This document shows, piece after piece, positions 1,246-9,300 of a stretch of 10,296 nt of DNA (positions within the stretch are counted from its first letter, which is position 1; every line of letters begins with the position of its first letter). The stretch is from a virus (taxonomy: Duplodnaviria > Heunggongvirae > Uroviricota > Caudoviricetes): the IMG/VR virus record IMGVR_UViG_2548876863_000020, positions 1 to 10,296 of that record, one strand, 5' to 3'. The notes under the pieces were generated by a model, which made no database searches, was not told the DNA's origin, and saw only the letters and a program-made list of their open reading frames with translations. The position numbers and the translations under genes were made by a program.

Positions 1246-1527
1246 TTAGCAATTGATATTCACCTTTATCGCGTATACCTTTACCGGCTTATCACCGAAG
1301 TGGGGGTGTGTGATTGTTTTCACTTCATATCCTCCATACGGAACATCAATTCTGCGACTGGAGTCGTCGCGCTTCGGATATCCCTTTGTGATAATCAGGC
1401 GGTCATACTCCCGGAACATAATTCGCTTATTCCAATAGTCATTACACAGGCGATACTCTTCCGTTTTCTCTCCTCGAATCATGGCATCGAAGTATTCACC
1501 TTTGACGGCAAGTTGTAGGTTAGCCAC
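1246..1527 (-). CDS. ASCH/DUF3850-like (PUA-fold) protein, tentative (93 aa)
   Basis: GTG start 1527..1525 with AGGAGG 6 nt upstream; overlaps the upstream gene stop by 8 nt. N-terminal pattern L.L.VKGEYFDAMIRGEKTEEYR resembles ASCH/DUF3850 as recalled; not verified by search. Confidence 0.4.
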   Translation of the reverse strand: MANLQLAVKGEYFDAMIRGEKTEEYRLCNDYWNKRIMFREYDRLIITKGYPKRDDSSRRIDVPYGGYEVKTITHPHFGDKPVKVYAIKVNINC

Positions 1528-1822
1528 GGTTAACCTCCTGCGGAGTAGCCTTTACAAGCACTGGTGCAAATCCATCTTCATTAAGGTTATGAATATAGAC
1601 TTCTGTTCTCCTGCGCTCTTCAACGTTTAATATTGTTTCTGGATCATAAACCCATACTTTCATTCGACTATTCCATGAAGAAATCGCTTCAGATCTAGTT
1701 CGTTTTTCTGGTCCTTGGGCACCACATTTGCATGACACATAGCGCATTTTCCCTCTGATACTGAATGAGTATCCGATGTTAAGCACAGTGGAACCACAGA
1801 ATGGGCAGCGATATAGATTCAT
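1520..1822 (-). CDS. Zinc-ribbon protein, Lar-like restriction-alleviation family candidate (100 aa)
   Basis: ATG 1822..1820 with AGGTGG upstream and ATGA overlap with the upstream gene. N-terminal CPFCG...CKCG four-cysteine ribbon is the motif I associate with the Lar family; the C-terminal 50 aa is an unrecognised extension. Confidence 0.45.
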   Translation of the reverse strand: MNLYRCPFCGSTVLNIGYSFSIRGKMRYVSCKCGAQGPEKRTRSEAISSWNSRMKVWVYDPETILNVEERRRTEVYIHNLNEDGFAPVLVKATPQEVNRG

Positions 1823-2520
1823 AAATCATCCACCTTAGGCGCAGCTGAGACAGCAACATTCCAGAACTCAGAAAACATATTGTATGCACCAGATAGATTG
1901 GAAGTGGCATACCCTCCAAGCTCACTTCTAATCTGAACGGCTCTCATCATTTCCGGTGTTAACTCCTTCGGCACCATAACCCAACCATCCGGAGTTACCG
2001 GAGAGTTGCCATCCAGCGCGTTCAACTTGTAAGCCTGGCTTACAGGTTCGGCTTCCAGTTCTGCTATGCGCTTCTCTGATGCTTCAAGTAACGCCTGCTT
2101 ATCGCGTAGCGCTTCTTCCAGTTCAGCAACATGGCACTCACTATCAATAAGGTTGTTCTCTGCGGCTTCCAGCTCAACACGCAGCTTCCCTACCGTTAGC
2201 GCAATATCCTCGTTCTCCTGATCACGGTTTTTGATGTATTGCTGGTTTCTTTCCCGTTCATCCAGCAGTGCCAGCACGGTAGCCGGATTGGCTGCAGCGA
2301 TGAATTCAGCATTGGCCTGCTGTTCCATTTGGAAATCTTCATCGAAACCGCTTTCAGGATGCGCTCCTTCAATTCTGCAAATAGGAATATATCCAGCAAC
2401 TTCACGATGAATTAGCGCATCATCACCATCAAATCGGCTTTCTCCATATTCGAGCGACCACTCACCACACGTTGCTTTTTCTGCCGCTTCACGCAGTGCC
2501 TGATAGTTAATTTTGGTCAT
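1819..2520 (-). CDS. Ead/Ea22-like family protein (233 aa), tentative
   Basis: ATG 2520..2518 with GGGTGA upstream. N-terminal INYQALREAAEKAT and internal LLDERERNQQYIKNRDQENEDIALTVGKLRVELE coiled coil resemble lambda Ea22-like proteins as recalled. Confidence 0.5.
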   Translation of the reverse strand: MTKINYQALREAAEKATCGEWSLEYGESRFDGDDALIHREVAGYIPICRIEGAHPESGFDEDFQMEQQANAEFIAAANPATVLALLDERERNQQYIKNRDQENEDIALTVGKLRVELEAAENNLIDSECHVAELEEALRDKQALLEASEKRIAELEAEPVSQAYKLNALDGNSPVTPDGWVMVPKELTPEMMRAVQIRSELGGYATSNLSGAYNMFSEFWNVAVSAAPKVDDL

Positions 2521-2521
2521 A

Positions 2522-2821
2522 TCACATCACCCTGAAGCCGTTGCATTTACGTAAGAAATCGCAGATATAGCCCTTCATTTTTTCATGCCAATCTCGATCA
2601 TTCCCATTGCACCAACCATCAGGTGGAGTCCAGTTTTCTATCAGAGCAGCCATTTTCTTTGCTTTCGCCGGAGTAGCTGTTGCGGTATCGCAGTAATGAC
2701 GAGTGTCAACCAACGCATCCATACCATCGATATCAAGTACGCAAAACCATGTGTGATTCGGCATTTCAACAGATGGTATTTGTTGCCCACGTCGACGTTT
2801 ATCAATAAGACATACAGTCAC
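2522..2821 (-). CDS. Hypothetical Cys/His-rich protein (99 aa)
   Basis: ORF-track frame 2522..2854; start refined to GTG 2821..2819 because AAAGGAGG lies 6 nt upstream and it forms a GTGA overlap with the stop of the 210-aa gene. Confidence 0.55.
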   Translation of the reverse strand: MTVCLIDKRRRGQQIPSVEMPNHTWFCVLDIDGMDALVDTRHYCDTATATPAKAKKMAALIENWTPPDGWCNGNDRDWHEKMKGYICDFLRKCNGFRVM

Positions 2822-3450
2822 TGGTTGCCTCCTTTGCGAAGCTGTTCCGCCCATTCTTCAAGGGATTTCTCCGCATATTCACCAGACAGGCCATCAATCG
2901 GACGCGGTTCATTAGCCAACTCTTCTTTTGCTGACAAAATCATGCGTGTAACGTCGAAAACTTCACGCAAAGACTTATTGATAAATCCGTGATTGAACGC
3001 AGCAGCAAGACGGCTGGCGGCATAGTTAATCCCCTCGTTGCGTGCTTCCGCACGTACTTCAGCAAGGAAAGCGTCGGTGGCTGGGGTATTTTCCATTAGT
3101 TTTTTTGACGTTGACCAAAGCGCGGAAAGCCACTCTTTATCAAACCATTTATCCTTATGGTGAAACATTTCATCAACTGTCTGGTGGCAGCGGGATACCT
3201 CAAAAAGGCACCGCGCATTCTCCGCCGCCAGCGCTGAAAACTTCTCGTGTGCCAACTTAACAGCCGAATCAGCCTGCTTAATTGACTCAATCGCTCTCTG
3301 TTGGTCTTCGGACAGAGCCGAAATCTTGGCCTCCGCTTCAGCAAATTTACGCACCAGATATTCAGCGTTTGTTTCGTTAACCTTTAAATCTCGTGGAATG
3401 CATTTACCTTTCAGAAAACCATCCATCTCAATTAGTGTCATTTGTTTCAT
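2818..3450 (-). CDS. Hypothetical protein (about 210 aa), predicted helical/coiled-coil
   Basis: ORF-track frame 2818..3468 (GTG); ATG 3450..3448 preferred, with GGAG about 10 nt upstream. No family recognised. Confidence 0.6.
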
Positions 3451-4231: not shown

Positions 4232-4720
4232 TTATTTGATAAGAAGTGAAGGTTTCCCAACTTTGAGTTGAGCGCCGGGGATATTTATTCCTGCTTTTAG
4301 TTGGTGTTTGATTGCCAGTTTGTCGGCTTTAATTGTCGTTTCAAACTCAACGTATTCAGGAGGAAGGGCGCTTGAGTCGATGATTTCTACAGTTTCTGAC
4401 GGTTTGCGGATTGTTACTTGGTGAATACCTGCTCGAATCTTTTTCTTGCCAACCATTTCAAGCGATGACGCTATATACGCCATAATGCTGTCAATCTTAT
4501 TTTGAATTACTGCGGCTCGTTCATTCAGTGACTTTGCCTCGTCCTTGAGGCGTTCAGCATAACCAGATTCATTTTTAATAATGGCGAGAAGTTGCTCTAT
4601 TTTATCGGTAAATTCTCCTTCCATTCCTTCTATTGTGTCAGCAATCATCTCTGGCTCTAAATCTGAATCCATCAATTTTGCGTATTCATTGGCTATTTCA
4701 TATAGTTTGCTCACTGGCAA
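4232..4720 (-). CDS. Coiled-coil recombination-associated protein, possibly Sipho_Gp157-like (162 aa)
   Basis: ATG 4720..4718 with GGAGG 6 nt upstream; overlaps the recT 3' end by 23 nt. Size, predicted coiled coil and position next to recT fit Gp157-family proteins; assignment is from memory only. Confidence 0.4.
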   Translation of the reverse strand: MPVSKLYEIANEYAKLMDSDLEPEMIADTIEGMEGEFTDKIEQLLAIIKNESGYAERLKDEAKSLNERAAVIQNKIDSIMAYIASSLEMVGKKKIRAGIHQVTIRKPSETVEIIDSSALPPEYVEFETTIKADKLAIKHQLKAGINIPGAQLKVGKPSLLIK

Positions 4721-5600
4721 CCTCCAGTTTCGCTTTGCATTCTATGTAAATGGCTTGTACGTTCTGCTGCAATTTCATTCCAGATGTCAGGCGATATGCT
4801 TCTGCAAAATATCGCTTCAAATCATCCATGTTTTCTGCCTGAGCCATTTCATCACAAAGAAGTTGTGCTTTTTCCATTATTTCCTGCTGGCGTTTCCGTT
4901 CATCTTCGCGGATATCTTCCTCTGATTTGTGCGGCATAACTGGTTCCTGATGCATACCTTCATCTTCGTTAAGCAGGTGAATGGCATTATCCAGTCGCTG
5001 GGCTTTAGGCCAGTATTTGCTGGCGCGTTTAACTATGGTTTTACGCGCCATCTCTTCCCAGAATGTCTTCCACGGTCCATTCTTTGCCTTGCTCGTTGCT
5101 TCCACAGCTTTAATTTCTGCCAGACTCATTTCTTCAGTCAGGTAGTCACCATCTGCTGTTTTAACCGTGCAATAACCTCCAACAATAGAGCCTCGCTCAC
5201 CAAATGCGTTGTATTTGTGGGTTGGTGCTGAATCAAGGCCATTTGATTCATAGGTGTCGTTTGAGTACACCAGTTTGCATTGCCCCCACTTAATTGATCC
5301 TGTCGATTGCGCAAGATGAAGTAATCCCATGTAACTGATATCAAGGCACACCATGCCGTCGCGAGGAACCAGATAAGCAAGTTTGCTGGCCGGGTTTAAG
5401 GTGATGCCGATCGCCGCAACATTGATGATGGCGTTCTGTGCGCTGGTTGGATTTGCCAGTGCTGTTTTAGCCAGGTAATCGTTTTTCTGGAAATACTGAA
5501 TTGCAAACTGGCTTTCCTTAGCCCATGTCACCGTCTGTTCAGTCAATGCTCCGCAGAATAACTGCTCTTGCTGTTTAACGAATTCAACGATATTGCTCAT
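4698..5600 (-). CDS. recT: RecT-family single-strand annealing recombinase (300 aa)
   Basis: ATG 5600..5598 with GGAGA 6 nt upstream. Conserved segment NGPWKTFWEEMARKTIVKRASKYWP matches the RecT signature (compare Rac RecT NGPWVTHWEEMAKKTAIRRLFKYLP, recalled). Confidence 0.85.
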   Translation of the reverse strand: MSNIVEFVKQQEQLFCGALTEQTVTWAKESQFAIQYFQKNDYLAKTALANPTSAQNAIINVAAIGITLNPASKLAYLVPRDGMVCLDISYMGLLHLAQSTGSIKWGQCKLVYSNDTYESNGLDSAPTHKYNAFGERGSIVGGYCTVKTADGDYLTEEMSLAEIKAVEATSKAKNGPWKTFWEEMARKTIVKRASKYWPKAQRLDNAIHLLNEDEGMHQEPVMPHKSEEDIREDERKRQQEIMEKAQLLCDEMAQAENMDDLKRYFAEAYRLTSGMKLQQNVQAIYIECKAKLEVASEQTI

Positions 5601-5908
5601 GCAGCTTCTCCATAAATATGTCTGCGTTTGAATATTGCGAAGGCATATTCAGCCTTAACTCTTTCGGTTATTGCATCCCAGAACCATTCAGCGGCTTTTT
5701 CCTGATAGTTACAGTCATCATCTTCCAGCCAGTCGATAGCGTCCTTAGTGTGTTCATCTGGTTTATATGAGCGAAGCATTTCGCTTATTGGGTCGCAACG
5801 TTTGCAGAGGCGATCAACTTCACTGTTGATTCGCTCGTAATCTTCATCAGTAAAACTTGCGATTATTTGCGATATTTCACGCTTATCATTCAGAGTCAGA
5901 ATCATCAT
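5597..5908 (-). CDS. Hypothetical acidic protein (103 aa), immediately upstream of and coupled to recT
   Basis: ATG 5908..5906 with AGGAG upstream; ATGA overlap with the recT start. Occupies the slot that Gam/Abc-type RecBCD inhibitors take in lambda/P22; function inferred from position only. Confidence 0.6.
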   Translation of the reverse strand: MMILTLNDKREISQIIASFTDEDYERINSEVDRLCKRCDPISEMLRSYKPDEHTKDAIDWLEDDDCNYQEKAAEWFWDAITERVKAEYAFAIFKRRHIYGEAA

Positions 5909-5989: not shown

Positions 5990-6160
5990 TCATGGACGGC
6001 CTTGTTGTTTCAAAATATCCCAAAGCTTTTCGAGCAAACTTTTCATTCTTGGTTGTTTAAAGTCTGCTCCGGTTAAAATATTTTTTCGTGAATGCTGTAC
6101 CGATAAAATCGGGTTGAAAGGGCGAACCGATGCCGCCCCTGCAATAGCGAACTGTTGCAT
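5990..6160 (-). CDS. cIII: cIII-like protein (56 aa)
   Basis: Internal ATG 6160..6158 of the 5990..6265 frame, with AAGGAG 7 nt upstream. MQQFAIAG... start and ...SLLEKLWDILKQQGRP end resemble lambda CIII (MQYAIAG...SLLERI...RLIDILNQPGVP, recalled). The 35 codons upstream in the track ORF lack an RBS and overlap a terminator. Confidence 0.5.
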   Translation of the reverse strand: MQQFAIAGAASVRPFNPILSVQHSRKNILTGADFKQPRMKSLLEKLWDILKQQGRP

Positions 6161-6220
6161 AGGATGCTCCTTCTGTTTGATTGCATAACGAAAACGCCTC
6201 GAGTGAAGCGTTATTGGTAT

Positions 6221-6250
6221 GCATATAAAAAGGCCCTCACACTGGAGGGC
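6221..6250 (-). terminator. Putative intrinsic terminator (minus strand) upstream of cIII
   Basis: Minus-strand RNA GCCCUC-CAGUGU-GAGGGC followed by CUUUUUAUAU. Confidence 0.5.
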
Positions 6251-6384
6251 AAAGAAGATTTCCAATAATCAGAACAAGTCGGCTCCTGTTTAGTTACGAG
6301 CGACATTGCTCCGTGTATTCACTCGTTGGAATGAATACACAGTGCAGTGTTTATTCTGTTGTTTATGCCAAAAATAAAGGCCGA

Positions 6385-7008
6385 CTATGCGGCTTCGGAA
6401 GGAAGTCCAATCATCTTATTCAAATCTTCTACCCGTAAAGCAGGAAGTGCTGTACTTGCTTTATCTGCTTCTTTTGGTAGCAATTCTTTGCTTTCAGGCC
6501 AAACTTCAATAAGTCGCTTAACTGTTGTGACTGAGTTCAAAGCAGCCCATACATTTGATTCGATATCCTTTTTCAAGGCTTCAAGGTTTTGTTGCAATGC
6601 GCAGATTTCATCAAACCTTTTTGTTATTTCGTGTTCTGCGTCAAACATGCATTTATCTTTAGTCGGAGTAGGGAGCAATATATCTTCTCCGTTGCCGTCT
6701 TTCCCATATGAATGCCATCCAACCCTTCTGCCAGATACAGTCAGATAAATCGAAGTAGAACGAACATCGCATGAGTAAAATGAACATCCCAGCTTTTCAA
6801 GTTCTTCACTTATAGCTACTAACTTGGATGATAACTGATCCACTTCCTCAGTTTTATTTTTACCGCCAAACGCAATAACTCTGGCGTCAAGTGCAAGCTG
6901 GTTCTTTAACTTTGTTACTTCTTCAAGTTCAGTGAAAACCCCAGACTTAATTAAAGCGTTACGAGCGATTTTCTCTTTCATTCTCGTAGTTAAGCGGATT
7001 GATGACAT
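6385..7008 (-). CDS. Hypothetical protein (207 aa)
   Basis: ORF-track frame 6385..7023 (TTG); ATG 7008..7006 preferred, with GAGAGGT upstream. Lies between ral-like and cIII-like. No family recognised. Confidence 0.65.
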   Translation of the reverse strand: MSSIRLTTRMKEKIARNALIKSGVFTELEEVTKLKNQLALDARVIAFGGKNKTEEVDQLSSKLVAISEELEKLGCSFYSCDVRSTSIYLTVSGRRVGWHSYGKDGNGEDILLPTPTKDKCMFDAEHEITKRFDEICALQQNLEALKKDIESNVWAALNSVTTVKRLIEVWPESKELLPKEADKASTALPALRVEDLNKMIGLPSEAA

Positions 7009-7021
7009 ATTAATACCTCTC

Positions 7022-7054
7022 AAATAAGAAAATAAAGGCCACCATCAGGCAGCC
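7022..7054 (-). terminator. Putative intrinsic terminator (minus strand) after ral-like gene
   Basis: Minus-strand RNA GGCUGCC-UGAU-GGUGGCC (7 bp including two G-U pairs) followed by UUUAUUUUCUUAUUU; the ral-like stop TGA is in the loop. Confidence 0.45.
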
Positions 7055-7245
7055 TTGTTGTTCTGTTTACCAAGTTCTCTGGCAATCATTGCCGTAGTTC
7101 GTATTGCCCATTTATCGACATATTTCCCATCCTCCATTACAGGAAGCATTTCTTCAGGCTTAACCATGCATTCCGATTGCAGCTTGCATCCATTGCATCG
7201 CTTGAATTGTCCACACCATTGATTTTTATCAATAGTCGTAGTCAT
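7045..7245 (-). CDS. ral: Ral-like restriction-alleviation protein (66 aa), cysteine-rich
   Basis: ATG 7245..7243. Sequence MTTTIDKNQWCGQFKRCNGCKLQSEC... matches my recollection of lambda Ral closely, and it lies downstream of N in the pL operon as ral does in lambda. Not verified by search. Confidence 0.5.
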   Translation of the reverse strand: MTTTIDKNQWCGQFKRCNGCKLQSECMVKPEEMLPVMEDGKYVDKWAIRTTAMIARELGKQNNKAA

Positions 7246-7323
7246 ACGGATAGTCCTGGTATTGTTCCATCACATCCTGCGGATGCTCTTCGAACTCTTC
7301 AAATTCTTCTTCCATATCTCACC

Positions 7324-7623
7324 TCAAATAAGTGGTTTGCTGCCTAATTTCATTTTCTGGCAACCAACACAAGTCACACCCATTTCACTGCGTGGCTTGC
7401 GGTAGTAAATACGGTTCTGTTTACGCTCGACTTCTTCTTTCTTCTTGCAGCAAAGGCTTCCTAGCGATGCTGCTTTGTCTGCTCTGACGCAACCAGAGAG
7501 CTTTAGCGCAATTTTTCGCGCCAGTCGCTGCTCTTGCATCGCCTGTTCACGTTGAGCCTGTCTGCGTGCTCTGCGGCGATTTCTGGCGTTATCGTCAGCC
7601 AGATATGTAATGACTACTGTCAT
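7324..7623 (-). CDS. N: Antitermination protein N (99 aa)
   Basis: ATG 7623..7621 with GGAGG 5 nt upstream (track ORF extends further with a non-ATG start). Arginine-rich motif NARNRRRARRQAQREQ near the N-terminus; C-terminus ERKQNRIYYRKPRSEMGVTCVGCQKMKLGSKPLI parallels lambda N (ERKNQRTWYSKPGERGITCSGRQKIKGKSIPLI, recalled). Confidence 0.85.
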   Translation of the reverse strand: MTVVITYLADDNARNRRRARRQAQREQAMQEQRLARKIALKLSGCVRADKAASLGSLCCKKKEEVERKQNRIYYRKPRSEMGVTCVGCQKMKLGSKPLI

Positions 7624-7678
7624 GTTGACCTCCGATGAAACAACTTTGGAATTGATAGTGATTGCAAAGTGGTTTCTG

Positions 7679-7707
7679 GCCCCTCGAACTGAGGGGCAGA
7701 AAGAGCA
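7679..7707 (-). promoter_or_regulatory. GC-rich hairpin with boxA-like flank in the N leader (function uncertain)
   Basis: Minus-strand RNA UGCUCUUUCU then GCCCCUC-AGUUC-GAGGGGC (7-bp perfect stem), about 55 nt upstream of the N start; no U tract after it, so not a classical terminator. Confidence 0.35.
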
Positions 7708-7936
7708 TCTCGCCACCTAATAGGTCGATGCTCGGATCGAGAGATTTAATTAACCTCGGTTTTGAAGTTATGCATTCACATAAATCCTCCTACCTCTTGT
7801 GCAGCTTTCTTGAATATGGTGGCGGCTGCATAACGCCTATGGAATTGACTTTGGCGGTGACGCGCCGGGTGCTTATCTTCCGGTTGCCGTCGTGCAGCTG
7901 CACTTCACGTCACCCCAAAGCCAACTACTCTTTGGT

Positions 7937-8197: not shown

Positions 8198-8566
8198 TTA
8201 GTCAGCGAAGGTTAAGACGAGAATTACCTTAATGATGTCTGCTACAACAGACACGGCCATAGATAAACCAAAGACGATCCAAGCCATAGAGATGTCTTCA
8301 CTACCATCGTATAGAGTTCCGTAATCACTGGTGTAAGGCGTAAATGTCGCGCCTTGATACAACAGGTATAAGCTTGAACCATAGAGGATAAATGCAGATA
8401 TCCCTTGTATTGCTATGATCACTAGAATCATGAAACGAGCTGATCTATGCGCCCAAGCCTGGCTTATTTTTTCTGATAGAGATTTCGCAATAAAAGCATG
8501 CGCTAAGCCGTAAATTGTCGAGATTGCCAACATCCCAAAAAAGCTTGCTATAGCGGTTCCAACCAT
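8198..8566 (-). CDS. Small integral membrane protein (about 122 aa, three predicted TM helices) co-transcribed downstream of cI
   Basis: ORF-track frame 8198..8587 (TTG overlapping the cI stop); ATG 8566..8564 with AAGGGG upstream is the more likely start. Three hydrophobic stretches of roughly 25 residues each. No terminator between it and cI. Confidence 0.65.
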   Translation of the reverse strand: MVGTAIASFFGMLAISTIYGLAHAFIAKSLSEKISQAWAHRSARFMILVIIAIQGISAFILYGSSLYLLYQGATFTPYTSDYGTLYDGSEDISMAWIVFGLSMAVSVVADIIKVILVLTFAD

Positions 8567-8583
8567 AAGCGCCCCTTGCGTGA

Positions 8584-9300
8584 TCAAACCAGCCTTAGTT
8601 TTGTCTCAATTGCAACGCCTATAATCTTGCAGTTTCCATTGATTGGCACGAGAGGCCATGCAGGGTTAAGTCCCTTGAGGTATTTATTTCCGCCGTCGAT
8701 TATCAGCTTCTTGAATGTTGCTTCGTTAGAGTCAGAAAGTTTTGCTATGACCAAGCTGCCGTTGATCGCCTCCCTTCCGGTATCGAAAAGAACGAATGTT
8801 CCCTCTGGAATGCTTAACCCAACCGGTGCCGTCATTGAATCACCTTCCACTTTAAGCCAGAACGCATTACCTTGAATATGCGCGTCAGACTCAAGCCAAA
8901 CATCTATGTCTTTAATGGTGTATGGTTCGCATGCTTCACACCACGAGCCAGCCTGGATACTGCTTAACACCGGATACCTCTTTCCTGCTCTGTATTCCCC
9001 TGCATACCTTACGTTGGCATCGCTCTTAAGGCTTTCTGCCTGTTCTGCAACCTTGGCAGCAATTGACTGGCTAAAATCAGCAATTGAGACTTGCAACAGT
9101 CGTGCAAAACCAGATGCAACCTCAACGTTTAGCGCGTTTCTGCCATTAAGATAATGCCCTACCGCTCCTTGGGTGATACCCAGTTCATCAGCGATTGAGT
9201 ATTGGGTTATTCCCAATTCTTTCTTTTTTGACTCATACAAAGCCTTAAGCCGCTTAGCGTCTTCGAGCTGTTCTGTCGTCAGTGATTTTTTATTTTCCAT
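8584..9300 (-). CDS. cI: CI-type prophage repressor (238 aa), HTH plus S24 autopeptidase domain
   Basis: Strong resemblance to lambda CI as recalled (LTTEQLEDAKRLKALYESKKKELG...). Ala-Gly cleavage site in IQAGSW, catalytic Ser in EGDSMTAP, Lys in TFKKLI. Divergent from cro with operators between them. Confidence 0.95.
   Translation of the reverse strand: MENKKSLTTEQLEDAKRLKALYESKKKELGITQYSIADELGITQGAVGHYLNGRNALNVEVASGFARLLQVSIADFSQSIAAKVAEQAESLKSDANVRYAGEYRAGKRYPVLSSIQAGSWCEACEPYTIKDIDVWLESDAHIQGNAFWLKVEGDSMTAPVGLSIPEGTFVLFDTGREAINGSLVIAKLSDSNEATFKKLIIDGGNKYLKGLNPAWPLVPINGNCKIIGVAIETKLRLV

What the first reader, a model, noticed from the sequence alone, without database searches (positions are those of the whole stretch)
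6385..7008. Unassigned 207-aa protein between ral-like and cIII-like genes
This slot holds accessory genes in lambdoid phages (Ea10 in lambda, gene 17 in P22). The 207-aa protein shows no SSB-like features and no recognisable motif. It is bracketed by intrinsic terminators on both sides (7022-7054 and 6221-6250), so it behaves as a discrete N-dependent cassette.
Basis: inference. Interest (0 to 1): 0.45.

Follow-up and report, generated by a model that had tools for sequence, protein, structure and literature searches.

The report
Nmad5-family phage gene, function unknown
The "unassigned" 207-aa protein is a real gene of the already named but biochemically uncharacterised phage family Nmad5. 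It is a mobile, dispensable early gene of lambda-like prophages and looks like a binding or adaptor protein rather than the "nucleotide modification" enzyme its name suggests.

Summary
The ORF at 6385-7008 (minus strand, 207 aa) is real. It has a GAGAGG ribosome site and is under purifying selection (median dN/dS 0.27).

It is not unassigned. It matches Pfam PF18757 (Nmad5) end to end (E 1.7e-69) and PHROG 1965. Copies 94-99.7% identical occur in 211 of 5,426 complete E. coli genomes, where RefSeq already names them Nmad5, and in phages mEp235, HK542 and the Stx1a/Stx2a phages.

The family is large (2,329 clusters at 50% identity) and made of stand-alone proteins of about 200 aa. Its function is untested.

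AlphaFold gives a confident helical bundle with a beta-hairpin (pLDDT 88) that has no solved structural relative. The conserved residues do not look catalytic. The strongest conservation is a C-terminal peptide, LNxxIGLP, in a flexible tail.

The two flanking hairpins are real but are not the gene's own. The upstream one belongs to the ral module. The downstream one is lambda tL2a, the 3' end of the PreS sRNA. In about 65 of 80 relatives the gene directly abuts N.

Best guess, at low confidence: a non-enzymatic early accessory factor acting on DNA replication, recombination or host interference.

Known family, modest interest.

The parts
6385..7008 (-). Coding sequence of the 207-aa Nmad5-family protein (stop codon TAG at 6385-6387)
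   Evidence: ORF and translation. Pfam PF18757 full length, E 1.7e-69. PHROG 1965, E 3.7e-82. dN/dS 0.27. AlphaFold pLDDT 85.6 and 87.9.
7009..7028 (-). 20-nt leader CTTATTTGAGAGGTATTAAT that travels with the gene. It holds the Shine-Dalgarno GAGAGG (7016-7021). Its first 9 nt (CTTATTTGA) are identical to the last codons and stop of the phage-21-type N gene.
   Evidence: The same leader occurs in all 80 related loci whatever lies upstream. The same 9-mer ends N in this window at 7324-7332.
7025..7056 (-). Hairpin plus U-tract that spans the ral stop codon. It belongs to the ral module, not to the Nmad5 module.
   Evidence: Scan. Fold -15.6 kcal/mol, z -3.75. Present in lambda after ral. Absent upstream of the gene in about 65 of 80 relatives.
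7029..7040 (-). Right copy of the 12-bp direct repeat GGCCTTTATTTT that flanks the insertion relative to lambda
   Evidence: Read from the sequence. Lambda homology ends and resumes at these repeats.
6371..6382 (-). Left copy of the 12-bp direct repeat GGCCTTTATTTT, just after the stop codon. The stub does not fold into a terminator.
   Evidence: Sequence. Fold of 6362-6410 gives z -0.34.
6223..6370 (-). Lambda-like ral-ea10 intergenic segment: homologue of the PreS/LPR1 sRNA locus, ending in the tL2a hairpin (6233-6250). It is a neighbour and an independent element.
   Evidence: 97% identity to lambda 33,923-34,087. PreS and tL2a placed between ea10 and ral in bioRxiv 10.1101/2024.10.31.621285. 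Found downstream of the gene in 73 of 80 loci.
7045..7245 (-). ral (restriction alleviation), the upstream neighbour
   Evidence: Pfam Ral E 6.3e-48. 97% nucleotide identity to lambda.
5990..6160 (-). cIII-like gene (56 aa), the downstream neighbour
   Evidence: PHROG 550 'CIII' E 1e-22. Weak pairwise similarity to lambda CIII.
7324..7716 (-). N antiterminator gene (phage-21-type C-terminus; the true start is probably internal). It is the gene that directly precedes Nmad5 in most relatives.
   Evidence: ORF. C-terminal ...KMKLGSKPLI* is identical to the sequence abutting Nmad5 in most loci.

Best explanation
Shown:
- The ORF encodes a stand-alone member of the Nmad5 family (Pfam PF18757, PHROG 1965).
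- In this prophage it is a 646-bp module carrying only its own ribosome-binding leader. It is inserted in the T-run behind ral and transcribed leftward from pL.
- It is dispensable and exchangeable among lambdoid phages.

Inferred, with lower confidence:
- The protein is not an enzyme.
- It is an early-expressed helical-bundle plus beta-hairpin protein that works by binding. It uses a nearly invariant C-terminal peptide (LPAxxVxxLNxxIGLP, within 1-12 residues of the C-terminus in 149 of 156 non-redundant members) held on a flexible tail, together with a conserved TxK(K/R)LxxxWPExxELLP surface.
- Its partner belongs to phage or host DNA replication, recombination or nucleotide metabolism.
- It helps the phage in early DNA transactions or host takeover.
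- The name 'nucleotide modification protein' reflects where some relatives sit, not a demonstrated activity.
For: Identity:
- Full-length Pfam and PHROG matches.
- All family-invariant positions are present.
- RefSeq uses the same name.

Real gene:
- dN/dS 0.27.

Module and expression:
- Breakpoints against lambda and mEp235 with 12-bp and 9-bp junction repeats.
- No promoter-like site before the gene.
- pL-like site at 8052-8024.

Dispensable:
- IS629-like disruption in the Stx2a phages.
- A Dhillonvirus nmad5 deletion is viable (PMC11846954).

Non-enzymatic:
- Across 156 members below 60% mutual identity, positions conserved at 92% or more are I14, A18, R43, G48, G93, T162, L166, W170, P171, E172, L176, P178, L196, N197 and G201. 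There is no conserved His/Asp/Cys/Ser/Lys cluster.
- The 5-NedU pathway of phage M6 was rebuilt step by step from purified enzymes, and the M6 proteins named in the passages read are gp51-gp55. The word Nmad5 does not occur in that paper. The Nmad5 gene sits next to that cluster in M6-like phages.

Tail as docking peptide:
- It is the most conserved segment, yet has pLDDT about 46-57 in both models. It always lies next to the C-terminus.

Replication and recombination theme in distant relatives:
- PolA-DUF6378-ThyX-Nmad5-PD-(D/E)XK-like protein-primase-AAA_24 in N4-like phages.
- PolA...Nmad5-RNase T-like exonuclease-PurZ cluster.
- Nmad5 overlapping PolA in phage Scuro.
- Nmad5 plus RusA in Dhillonvirus.
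- The pL operon with RecT, YqaJ, 3'-5' exonuclease or SSB in temperate phages at 34-47% identity.

Functional surface:
- The Tmn-escape substitution K216E/K296E aligns with R165, between the conserved K164 and invariant L166.
Against: - No partner has been identified and no binding has been shown.
- Gene neighbourhoods are heterogeneous. Vibrio phage P23 has the gene among structural genes, and L092 and L093 are uninformative.
- Absence of an obvious catalytic set does not exclude an unusual enzyme or an obligatory subunit of one.
- Conserved basic residues (R5, K21, R43, K164) could instead bind a nucleotide or DNA.
- The family is patchy even within N4-like phages; E. coli phage N4 itself did not appear among the listed hits. 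That pattern fits an accessory or counter-defence role as well as a replication role.
Confidence: 0.4

Rival explanations
1. Counter-defence protein. Nmad5 binds and neutralises, or hides the phage from, a host immune or nuclease system, as its neighbour Ral does for type I restriction.
For: - It sits in an operon with two restriction-alleviation genes, Ral and Lar.
- Elsewhere it lies beside DNA-protective modification clusters and methyltransferases.
- It is a stand-alone, mobile, dispensable gene with binder-like features.
- A point mutation in a Dhillonvirus homologue lets the phage escape Tmn (PMC11846954).
Against: - Deleting Dhillonvirus nmad5 left Tmn sensitivity unchanged, so the wild-type protein is neither the sole trigger nor an inhibitor of Tmn.
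- The family is unusually uniform for an anti-defence protein: about 200 aa, with invariant positions across phages of Proteobacteria and a cyanophage.
- Its position inside the replication module of N4-like phages is fixed.
- It is not an acidic DNA mimic: pI 5.9, family median 7.6.
Confidence: 0.25
2. The family name is right. Nmad5 is an enzyme or an obligatory subunit of a nucleotide or DNA base-modification pathway, and here it would modify phage DNA or the nucleotide pool.
For: - The name and Pfam family derive from modification-gene neighbourhoods (Iyer et al. 2013, cited as ref. 29 in PMC11846954).
- The gene is adjacent to the thymidine-hypermodification cluster of M6/YuA-like phages, to the PurZ/DatZ Z-base cluster, to ThyX, and to dUTPase or DUF4406.
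Against: - No modification gene is present in the 10.3-kb window, which covers the pL operon from pL down to the xis-proximal end.
- No catalytic-type conservation and no enzyme-like fold match.
- The M6 pathway was reconstituted from purified enzymes, and Nmad5 is not mentioned in that paper.
- Many carriers (lambdoid phages, Dhillonvirus) have no associated modification cluster nearby.
Confidence: 0.1
3. Prophage-encoded defence or superinfection-exclusion moron that protects the lysogen.
For: The N-to-cIII region of lambdoid phages carries exclusion genes such as sieB (lambda annotation). The gene is mobile and accessory.
Against: - No PADLOC model matches.
- It lies in the repressor-controlled pL operon without a promoter of its own, so it should be silent in a lysogen.
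- Homologues sit in the replication modules of strictly lytic phages.
Confidence: 0.05

Closest known systems
Nmad5 family (Pfam PF18757; PHROG 1965), e.g. mEp235_037, HK542 and Stx1a-phage homologues
   Same: Same gene: 94-99.7% identity, same length, and in most cases the same place right after N and before the PreS/tL2a element.
   Different: In this window a ral module (about 300 bp) is interposed between N and the gene, and ea10 is absent.
Nmad5 of Dhillonvirus phages SM_A8 and SM_S22 (Tmn-escape locus, PMC11846954)
   Same: True family member (about 30% identity). N-terminal RLT..I..N and C-terminal T.KKLI..WPE...P....LN..CGIP motifs are shared. It is non-essential.
   Different: 254 aa, with a large insertion in the beta region. 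It sits with RusA inside the head-gene block rather than in a pL operon. The experimental link to Tmn has not been tested for the lambdoid protein.
Nmad5 genes of M6/YuA-like, Z-genome and N4-like lytic phages
   Same: Same domain, size and conserved C-terminal peptide.
   Different: They are embedded in DNA polymerase, nucleotide-metabolism or base-modification clusters. No such genes accompany the window copy.
Lambda Ea10 and P22 gene 17
   Same: Accessory genes between N/ral and cIII in the pL operon. Lambda annotation; the P22 gene order is from memory.
   Different: No sequence similarity to Ea10. Ea10 lies on the other side of PreS/tL2a and coexists with Nmad5 in 13 of 80 loci. P22 gp17 was not compared.
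Ral (lambda restriction alleviation)
   Same: Adjacent small early pL gene, plausibly also a host-interference function.
   Different: Unrelated sequence and family.

Membership tests
Nmad5 (Pfam PF18757) | Full-length match to the family HMM above the curated threshold | tested here: met
   234.5 bits against a cut-off of 27; residues 4-203 match profile positions 1-206 of 206. All 49 diverse relatives also match.
Nmad5 (Pfam PF18757) | Stand-alone single-domain protein of about 200 aa | tested here: met
   207 aa. The best 150 representatives are mostly 188-229 aa with a single matched stretch; a handful of shorter fragments (95-182 aa) also appear.
Nmad5 (Pfam PF18757) | Family-invariant positions (A18, G48, G93, L166, W170-P171-E172, L176, P178, L196-N197, G201) | tested here: met
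   All are present in the window protein.
Nmad5 (Pfam PF18757) | Genomic linkage to nucleotide or base-modification genes (the basis of the family name) | tested here: not met
   No such gene was found in the window by Pfam or PHROG scans of the ORFs. This is a contextual feature, not a sequence criterion.
Nmad5 (Pfam PF18757) | A defined biochemical activity | not testable with these tools
   None is described in the held literature. Four papers mention Nmad5.
SSB / Ea10-like occupant of the slot | Sequence similarity to lambda Ea10 or an OB-fold | tested here: not met
   BLASTP E 0.5 against Ea10. The model is helical with one beta-hairpin.
Known anti-phage defence systems (PADLOC-DB) | Match to any defence-protein model | tested here: not met
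   0 families at E up to 1.
DNA-mimic anti-restriction proteins (Ocr/ArdA-like) | Strongly acidic protein | tested here: not met
   pI 5.9; family median 7.6, range 5.0-9.8. No fold match.
Sliding-clamp-binding proteins (C-terminal Qxx[LI]x[LF] peptide; consensus recalled from memory) | C-terminal clamp-binding peptide and binding to DnaN | tested here: inconclusive
   The tail motif N197-x-x-[IVL]-G-[LI]-P fits the hydrophobic pattern (compare Pol IV QLVLGL, from memory) and lies 1-12 residues from the C-terminus in the 149 of 156 members that carry it. However, Asn is invariant where clamp binders have Gln. Binding is not testable here.

The most novel reading that the evidence does not exclude
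Nmad5 proteins are a pan-phage family of non-enzymatic adaptors. Their invariant C-terminal LNxxIGLP peptide docks onto a conserved bacterial replisome or recombination component. The beta sliding clamp is the most concrete candidate, because the peptide resembles the Pol IV-type clamp-binding motif. In lambdoid phages the gene also sits directly upstream of PreS, the sRNA reported to raise dnaN expression. Under this reading the family redirects or throttles host DNA synthesis early in infection. That would also fit the reported difficulty of cloning the Dhillonvirus homologue.
Probability: 0.1. Interest if true: 0.65.

Novelty: already known. Interest (0 to 1): 0.28.

Why it matters
As a finding it closes a question. 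The gene is not an orphan. It belongs to a named family that RefSeq already annotates, so the window adds no new kind of element.

What remains interesting is the family itself:
- It comprises thousands of sequence clusters in temperate and lytic phages of Proteobacteria, plus at least one cyanophage (Pam3).
- It has a confidently predicted fold with no solved relative.
- It has an invariant C-terminal peptide.
- It has one genetic link to the Tmn defence system.
- Its name implies an enzymology for which I found no support.

The lambdoid copies (mEp235, HK542) are in easily manipulated K-12 phages. They would be a convenient system for finding out what Nmad5 does.

Tried and rejected
- NCBIfam, PADLOC and PDB sequence searches with the single protein and with a 49-sequence profile gave nothing significant.
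- The afdb50 library was not available.
- A second AlphaFold run with a deeper 75-sequence alignment did not dock the C-terminal tail.
- The DefensePredictor 'NMAD' defence system looked like a lead but turned out to be Nmad2 (PF18753), not Nmad5.
- The Iyer et al. 2013 paper that defined the family is not held.
- Literature on mEp235 and on ea10/ral gave no functional data for this gene.
- Rfam found no RNA family in the window.
- The search for related loci with the diverse alignment failed for lack of a conserved stretch. With the closer alignment it returned only relatives at 94% identity or more.
- The idea that Ea10 and Nmad5 are alternative occupants of one slot was rejected, because they coexist.
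- The idea that the short stub after the stop codon is a terminator was rejected (z -0.34).

Full report
**1. The observation**

The minus strand carries an ATG-to-TAG ORF of 207 codons at 6385-7008. GAGAGG lies 7 nt upstream of the ATG (7016-7021).

- Upstream in transcription is Ral (7045-7245; Pfam Ral E 6e-48).
- Downstream is a 56-aa cIII homologue (5990-6160; PHROG 550 E 1e-22). It has only weak pairwise similarity to lambda CIII.

The wider window is a lambdoid immunity and early-left region:
- cII, cro and a cI-type repressor.
- A pL-like site at 8052-8024.
- A phage-21-type N, then ral and the target gene.
- cIII, a 103-aa unknown, RecT, Gp157, several unknowns, Ead/Ea22 and Lar.

- 7056 to 7035, -15.6 kcal/mol, z -3.75, followed by UUUAUUUU.
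- 6250 to 6233, -10.7 kcal/mol, z -2.7, followed by CUUUUU.

The ORF is a real gene. Among 63 intact close homologues there are 49 different alleles, with median pairwise dN/dS 0.27.

**2. It is not unassigned**

- The protein matches Pfam PF18757, 'Nucleotide modification associated domain 5' (Nmad5), from end to end (E 1.7e-69, 234.5 bits, cut-off 27). It also matches PHROG 1965, which has unknown function.
- NCBI names the close homologues 'Nmad5 family putative nucleotide modification protein'.
- The gene is present at 90-99.7% nucleotide identity in 211 of 5,426 complete E. coli genomes.
- It is present at 95-98% in phages HK542, HK244, mEp235, Kapi1 and the Stx1a phages. It is present in disrupted form in the Stx2a phages.
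- An exhaustive profile search finds 2,329 clusters (50% identity) with E up to 0.001. The best 150 are almost all single-domain proteins of about 190-230 aa.
- The name goes back to a comparative-genomics paper (Iyer et al. 2013, cited in PMC11846954). I could not read that paper.

**3. Anatomy of the locus**

Compared with lambda, window 7029-7340 is ral and its surroundings (97% identity). Window 6223-6388 is the lambda segment that in lambda follows ral directly (97%). The gene plus a 20-nt leader therefore sits as an insertion in the T-run behind the ral hairpin. It is flanked by a 12-bp direct repeat GGCCTTTATTTT (6371-6382 and 7029-7040). Lambda ea10 is missing, and homology resumes at the cIII start.

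Compared with mEp235, homology runs from the cIII leader through the gene to exactly 7028. It then jumps to the 3' end of N.

In 80 related viral contigs the leader CTTATTTGAGAGGAATTAAT is constant. Its first nine bases are the last codons and stop of a phage-21-type N:
- About 65 of 80 loci have N (...KMKLGSKPLI*) directly abutting the gene.
- 9 of 80 have the ral arrangement seen here.
- 6 of 80 keep only a remnant of the N 3' end.

So the upstream 'terminator' is a property of the ral module. In most relatives the gene would be co-transcribed with N and would not depend on antitermination.

The downstream hairpin is lambda tL2a. The conserved segment before it is the locus of the Hfq-dependent sRNA LPR1/PreS, reported to up-regulate dnaN (bioRxiv 10.1101/2024.10.31.621285). 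This segment follows the gene in 73 of 80 loci.

Ea10, where present (13 of 80 loci, and the Stx2a phages), lies beyond PreS. Ea10 and Nmad5 occupy neighbouring sub-slots, not one slot.

In the Stx2a-phage records that hit (47-48), the gene is split near codons 34-37 by an IS3-family element with IS629-like OrfA and OrfB. This is a natural knock-out.

**4. The protein**

Two AlphaFold runs (30 and 75 sequences) agree, with mean pLDDT 85.6 and 87.9 and pTM 0.70 and 0.74. The model has:
- Three N-terminal helices (8-22, 24-47, 50-72).
- A beta-hairpin region (86-100 plus short strands to about 122).
- A long helix (127-158).
- Three short helices carrying the WPE motif (163-183).
- A low-confidence tail (182-207) with one short helix (193-200).

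Among 156 family members below 60% mutual identity, the positions conserved at 92% or more are I14, A18, R43, G48, G93, T162, L166, W170, P171, E172, L176, P178, L196, N197 (100%) and G201. This set has no His/Asp/Cys/Ser/Lys constellation of the kind expected for a nucleotide-modifying enzyme.

The most conserved stretch is T-x-K-x-L-L-x-x-W-P-E-x-x-E-L-L-P ... L-P-A-x5-L-N-x-x-I-G-L-P. The final motif was found in 149 of the 156 members and there lies 1-12 residues from the C-terminus.

The protein is neither strongly acidic nor strongly basic (pI 5.9; family median 7.6).

**5. Context of distant relatives**

| Phage group | Gene order around Nmad5 |
|---|---|
| N4-like phages (three loci) | DNA polymerase A - DUF6378 - ThyX - Nmad5 - 316-328-aa protein (faint PD-(D/E)XK hit in one locus) - primase - AAA_24 |
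| YuA/M6-like Pseudomonas phages | Between the thymidine-hypermodification genes and thymidylate synthase/PolA |
| Acinetobacter phage Scuro | Overlaps the start of PolA |
| Dhillonviruses | Two-gene unit with RusA |
| More divergent temperate phages (34-47% identity) | Again early in the repressor-proximal leftward operon, with RecT/YqaJ, a 3'-5' exonuclease, SSB or methyltransferases further along |

Some contexts are uninformative.

The common theme is early DNA replication, recombination and nucleotide metabolism rather than base modification as such. The window itself has no modification gene.

In the one modification cluster next to an Nmad5 gene that has been dissected biochemically (phage M6), the pathway steps were rebuilt from purified enzymes. 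The M6 proteins named in the passages read are gp51-gp55, and the paper does not mention Nmad5.

**6. Experimental hooks in the literature**

All come from PMC11846954:
- In Dhillonviruses, escape from the Tmn defence system maps to K216E (SM_A8) or K296E (SM_S22) in nmad5.
- The gene can be deleted, and the deletion does not change Tmn sensitivity.
- Attempts to clone the gene failed, apparently because it is toxic.

I aligned these proteins with the window protein. They are true but divergent family members (about 30% identity). The 80-residue numbering offset comes from a longer annotated start in SM_S22. The substituted lysine corresponds to R165, between the conserved K164 and invariant L166.

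**7. Interpretation**

Identity as an Nmad5-family gene is essentially certain.

For mechanism, I favour a non-enzymatic early accessory protein that acts through protein (or DNA) contacts in phage or host DNA transactions, docking through its C-terminal peptide (confidence about 0.4). This reading fits the conservation pattern, the fold, the flexible conserved tail, the gene neighbourhoods, dispensability and the M6 reconstitution.

The rivals are:
- A counter-defence binder (0.25). For: neighbours Ral and Lar, proximity to DNA-protection clusters, and the Tmn genetics. Against: the deletion result and the family's uniformity.
- A genuine modification enzyme or subunit (0.1).
- A lysogen-protecting exclusion gene (0.05). 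Against: no PADLOC hit, no own promoter, and presence in lytic phages.

A speculative lead is that the tail N-x-x-[IVL]-G-L-P resembles the Pol IV-type beta-clamp-binding peptide QLVLGL (recalled from memory, not tested). The gene also sits next to PreS, which is reported to raise dnaN expression. However, the invariant Asn in place of the canonical Gln argues for caution.

**8. Verdict**

However:
- It is already a named and annotated family member.
- Its 'own' terminators belong to its neighbours (ral and PreS/tL2a).
- Ea10 is a neighbour rather than an alternative.

Novelty: already known. Interest is modest, and rests on the unresolved function of a very widespread phage family.

Noticed in passing
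window 6223-6370 (-), hairpin 6233-6250: This segment is 97% identical to the lambda ral-ea10 intergenic region. It is the homologue of the Hfq-dependent sRNA PreS/LPR1, ending in terminator tL2a. It follows the Nmad5 gene in 73 of 80 related loci. Rfam has no model that hits it.
   Followed up: partly
L099 (Stx2a phage Stx2_716, LC616058.1) 1630-3450: In the Stx2a-converting phage records that hit (47-48), the Nmad5 gene is split near codons 34-37 by an IS3-family insertion with IS629-like OrfA (108 aa) and OrfB (296 aa). Ea10 follows PreS in the same phages.
   Followed up: partly
window 8198-8587 (-): A 129-aa ORF with several hydrophobic, membrane-like segments lies immediately downstream of the cI-type repressor, in the position of lambda rexAB. 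PHROG 6534, unknown function. It is a candidate lysogen-expressed exclusion or defence gene.
   Followed up: no
window 5597-5908 (-): A 103-aa acidic protein of unknown function (PHROG 3486, no Pfam) lies between cIII and RecT, where lambda has kil and gam.
   Followed up: no
window 4232-5600 (-): A RecT recombinase is followed by a Siphovirus Gp157-family protein. No exonuclease partner was detected anywhere in the window.
   Followed up: no
window 1520-1822 (-) and 7045-7245 (-): The same leftward operon carries two restriction-alleviation genes, Lar (Pfam E 1e-8) and Ral.
   Followed up: no
window 7021-7029 and 7324-7332 (-); 6371-6382 and 7029-7040 (-): Module junctions coincide with short direct repeats. 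CTTATTTGA (the end of N) flanks the ral module. GGCCTTTATTTT flanks the Nmad5 module relative to lambda. This is consistent with mosaic exchange at microhomologies.
   Followed up: yes
L101 (phage SM_S22, PP627283) 1506-2510: The annotated Nmad5 start in SM_S22 adds 80 N-terminal residues that are absent from SM_A8 and EP23 and that overlap the scaffolding gene on the other strand. It is probably an over-extended start. This explains the K296 versus K216 numbering in PMC11846954.
   Followed up: partly
window 6193-6212 (-): A third terminator-like hairpin (-9.9 kcal/mol, z -3.3) lies just upstream of cIII. It is at the position I recall for lambda tL2b. The region shows 79% identity to lambda 33,443-33,522.
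   Followed up: partly
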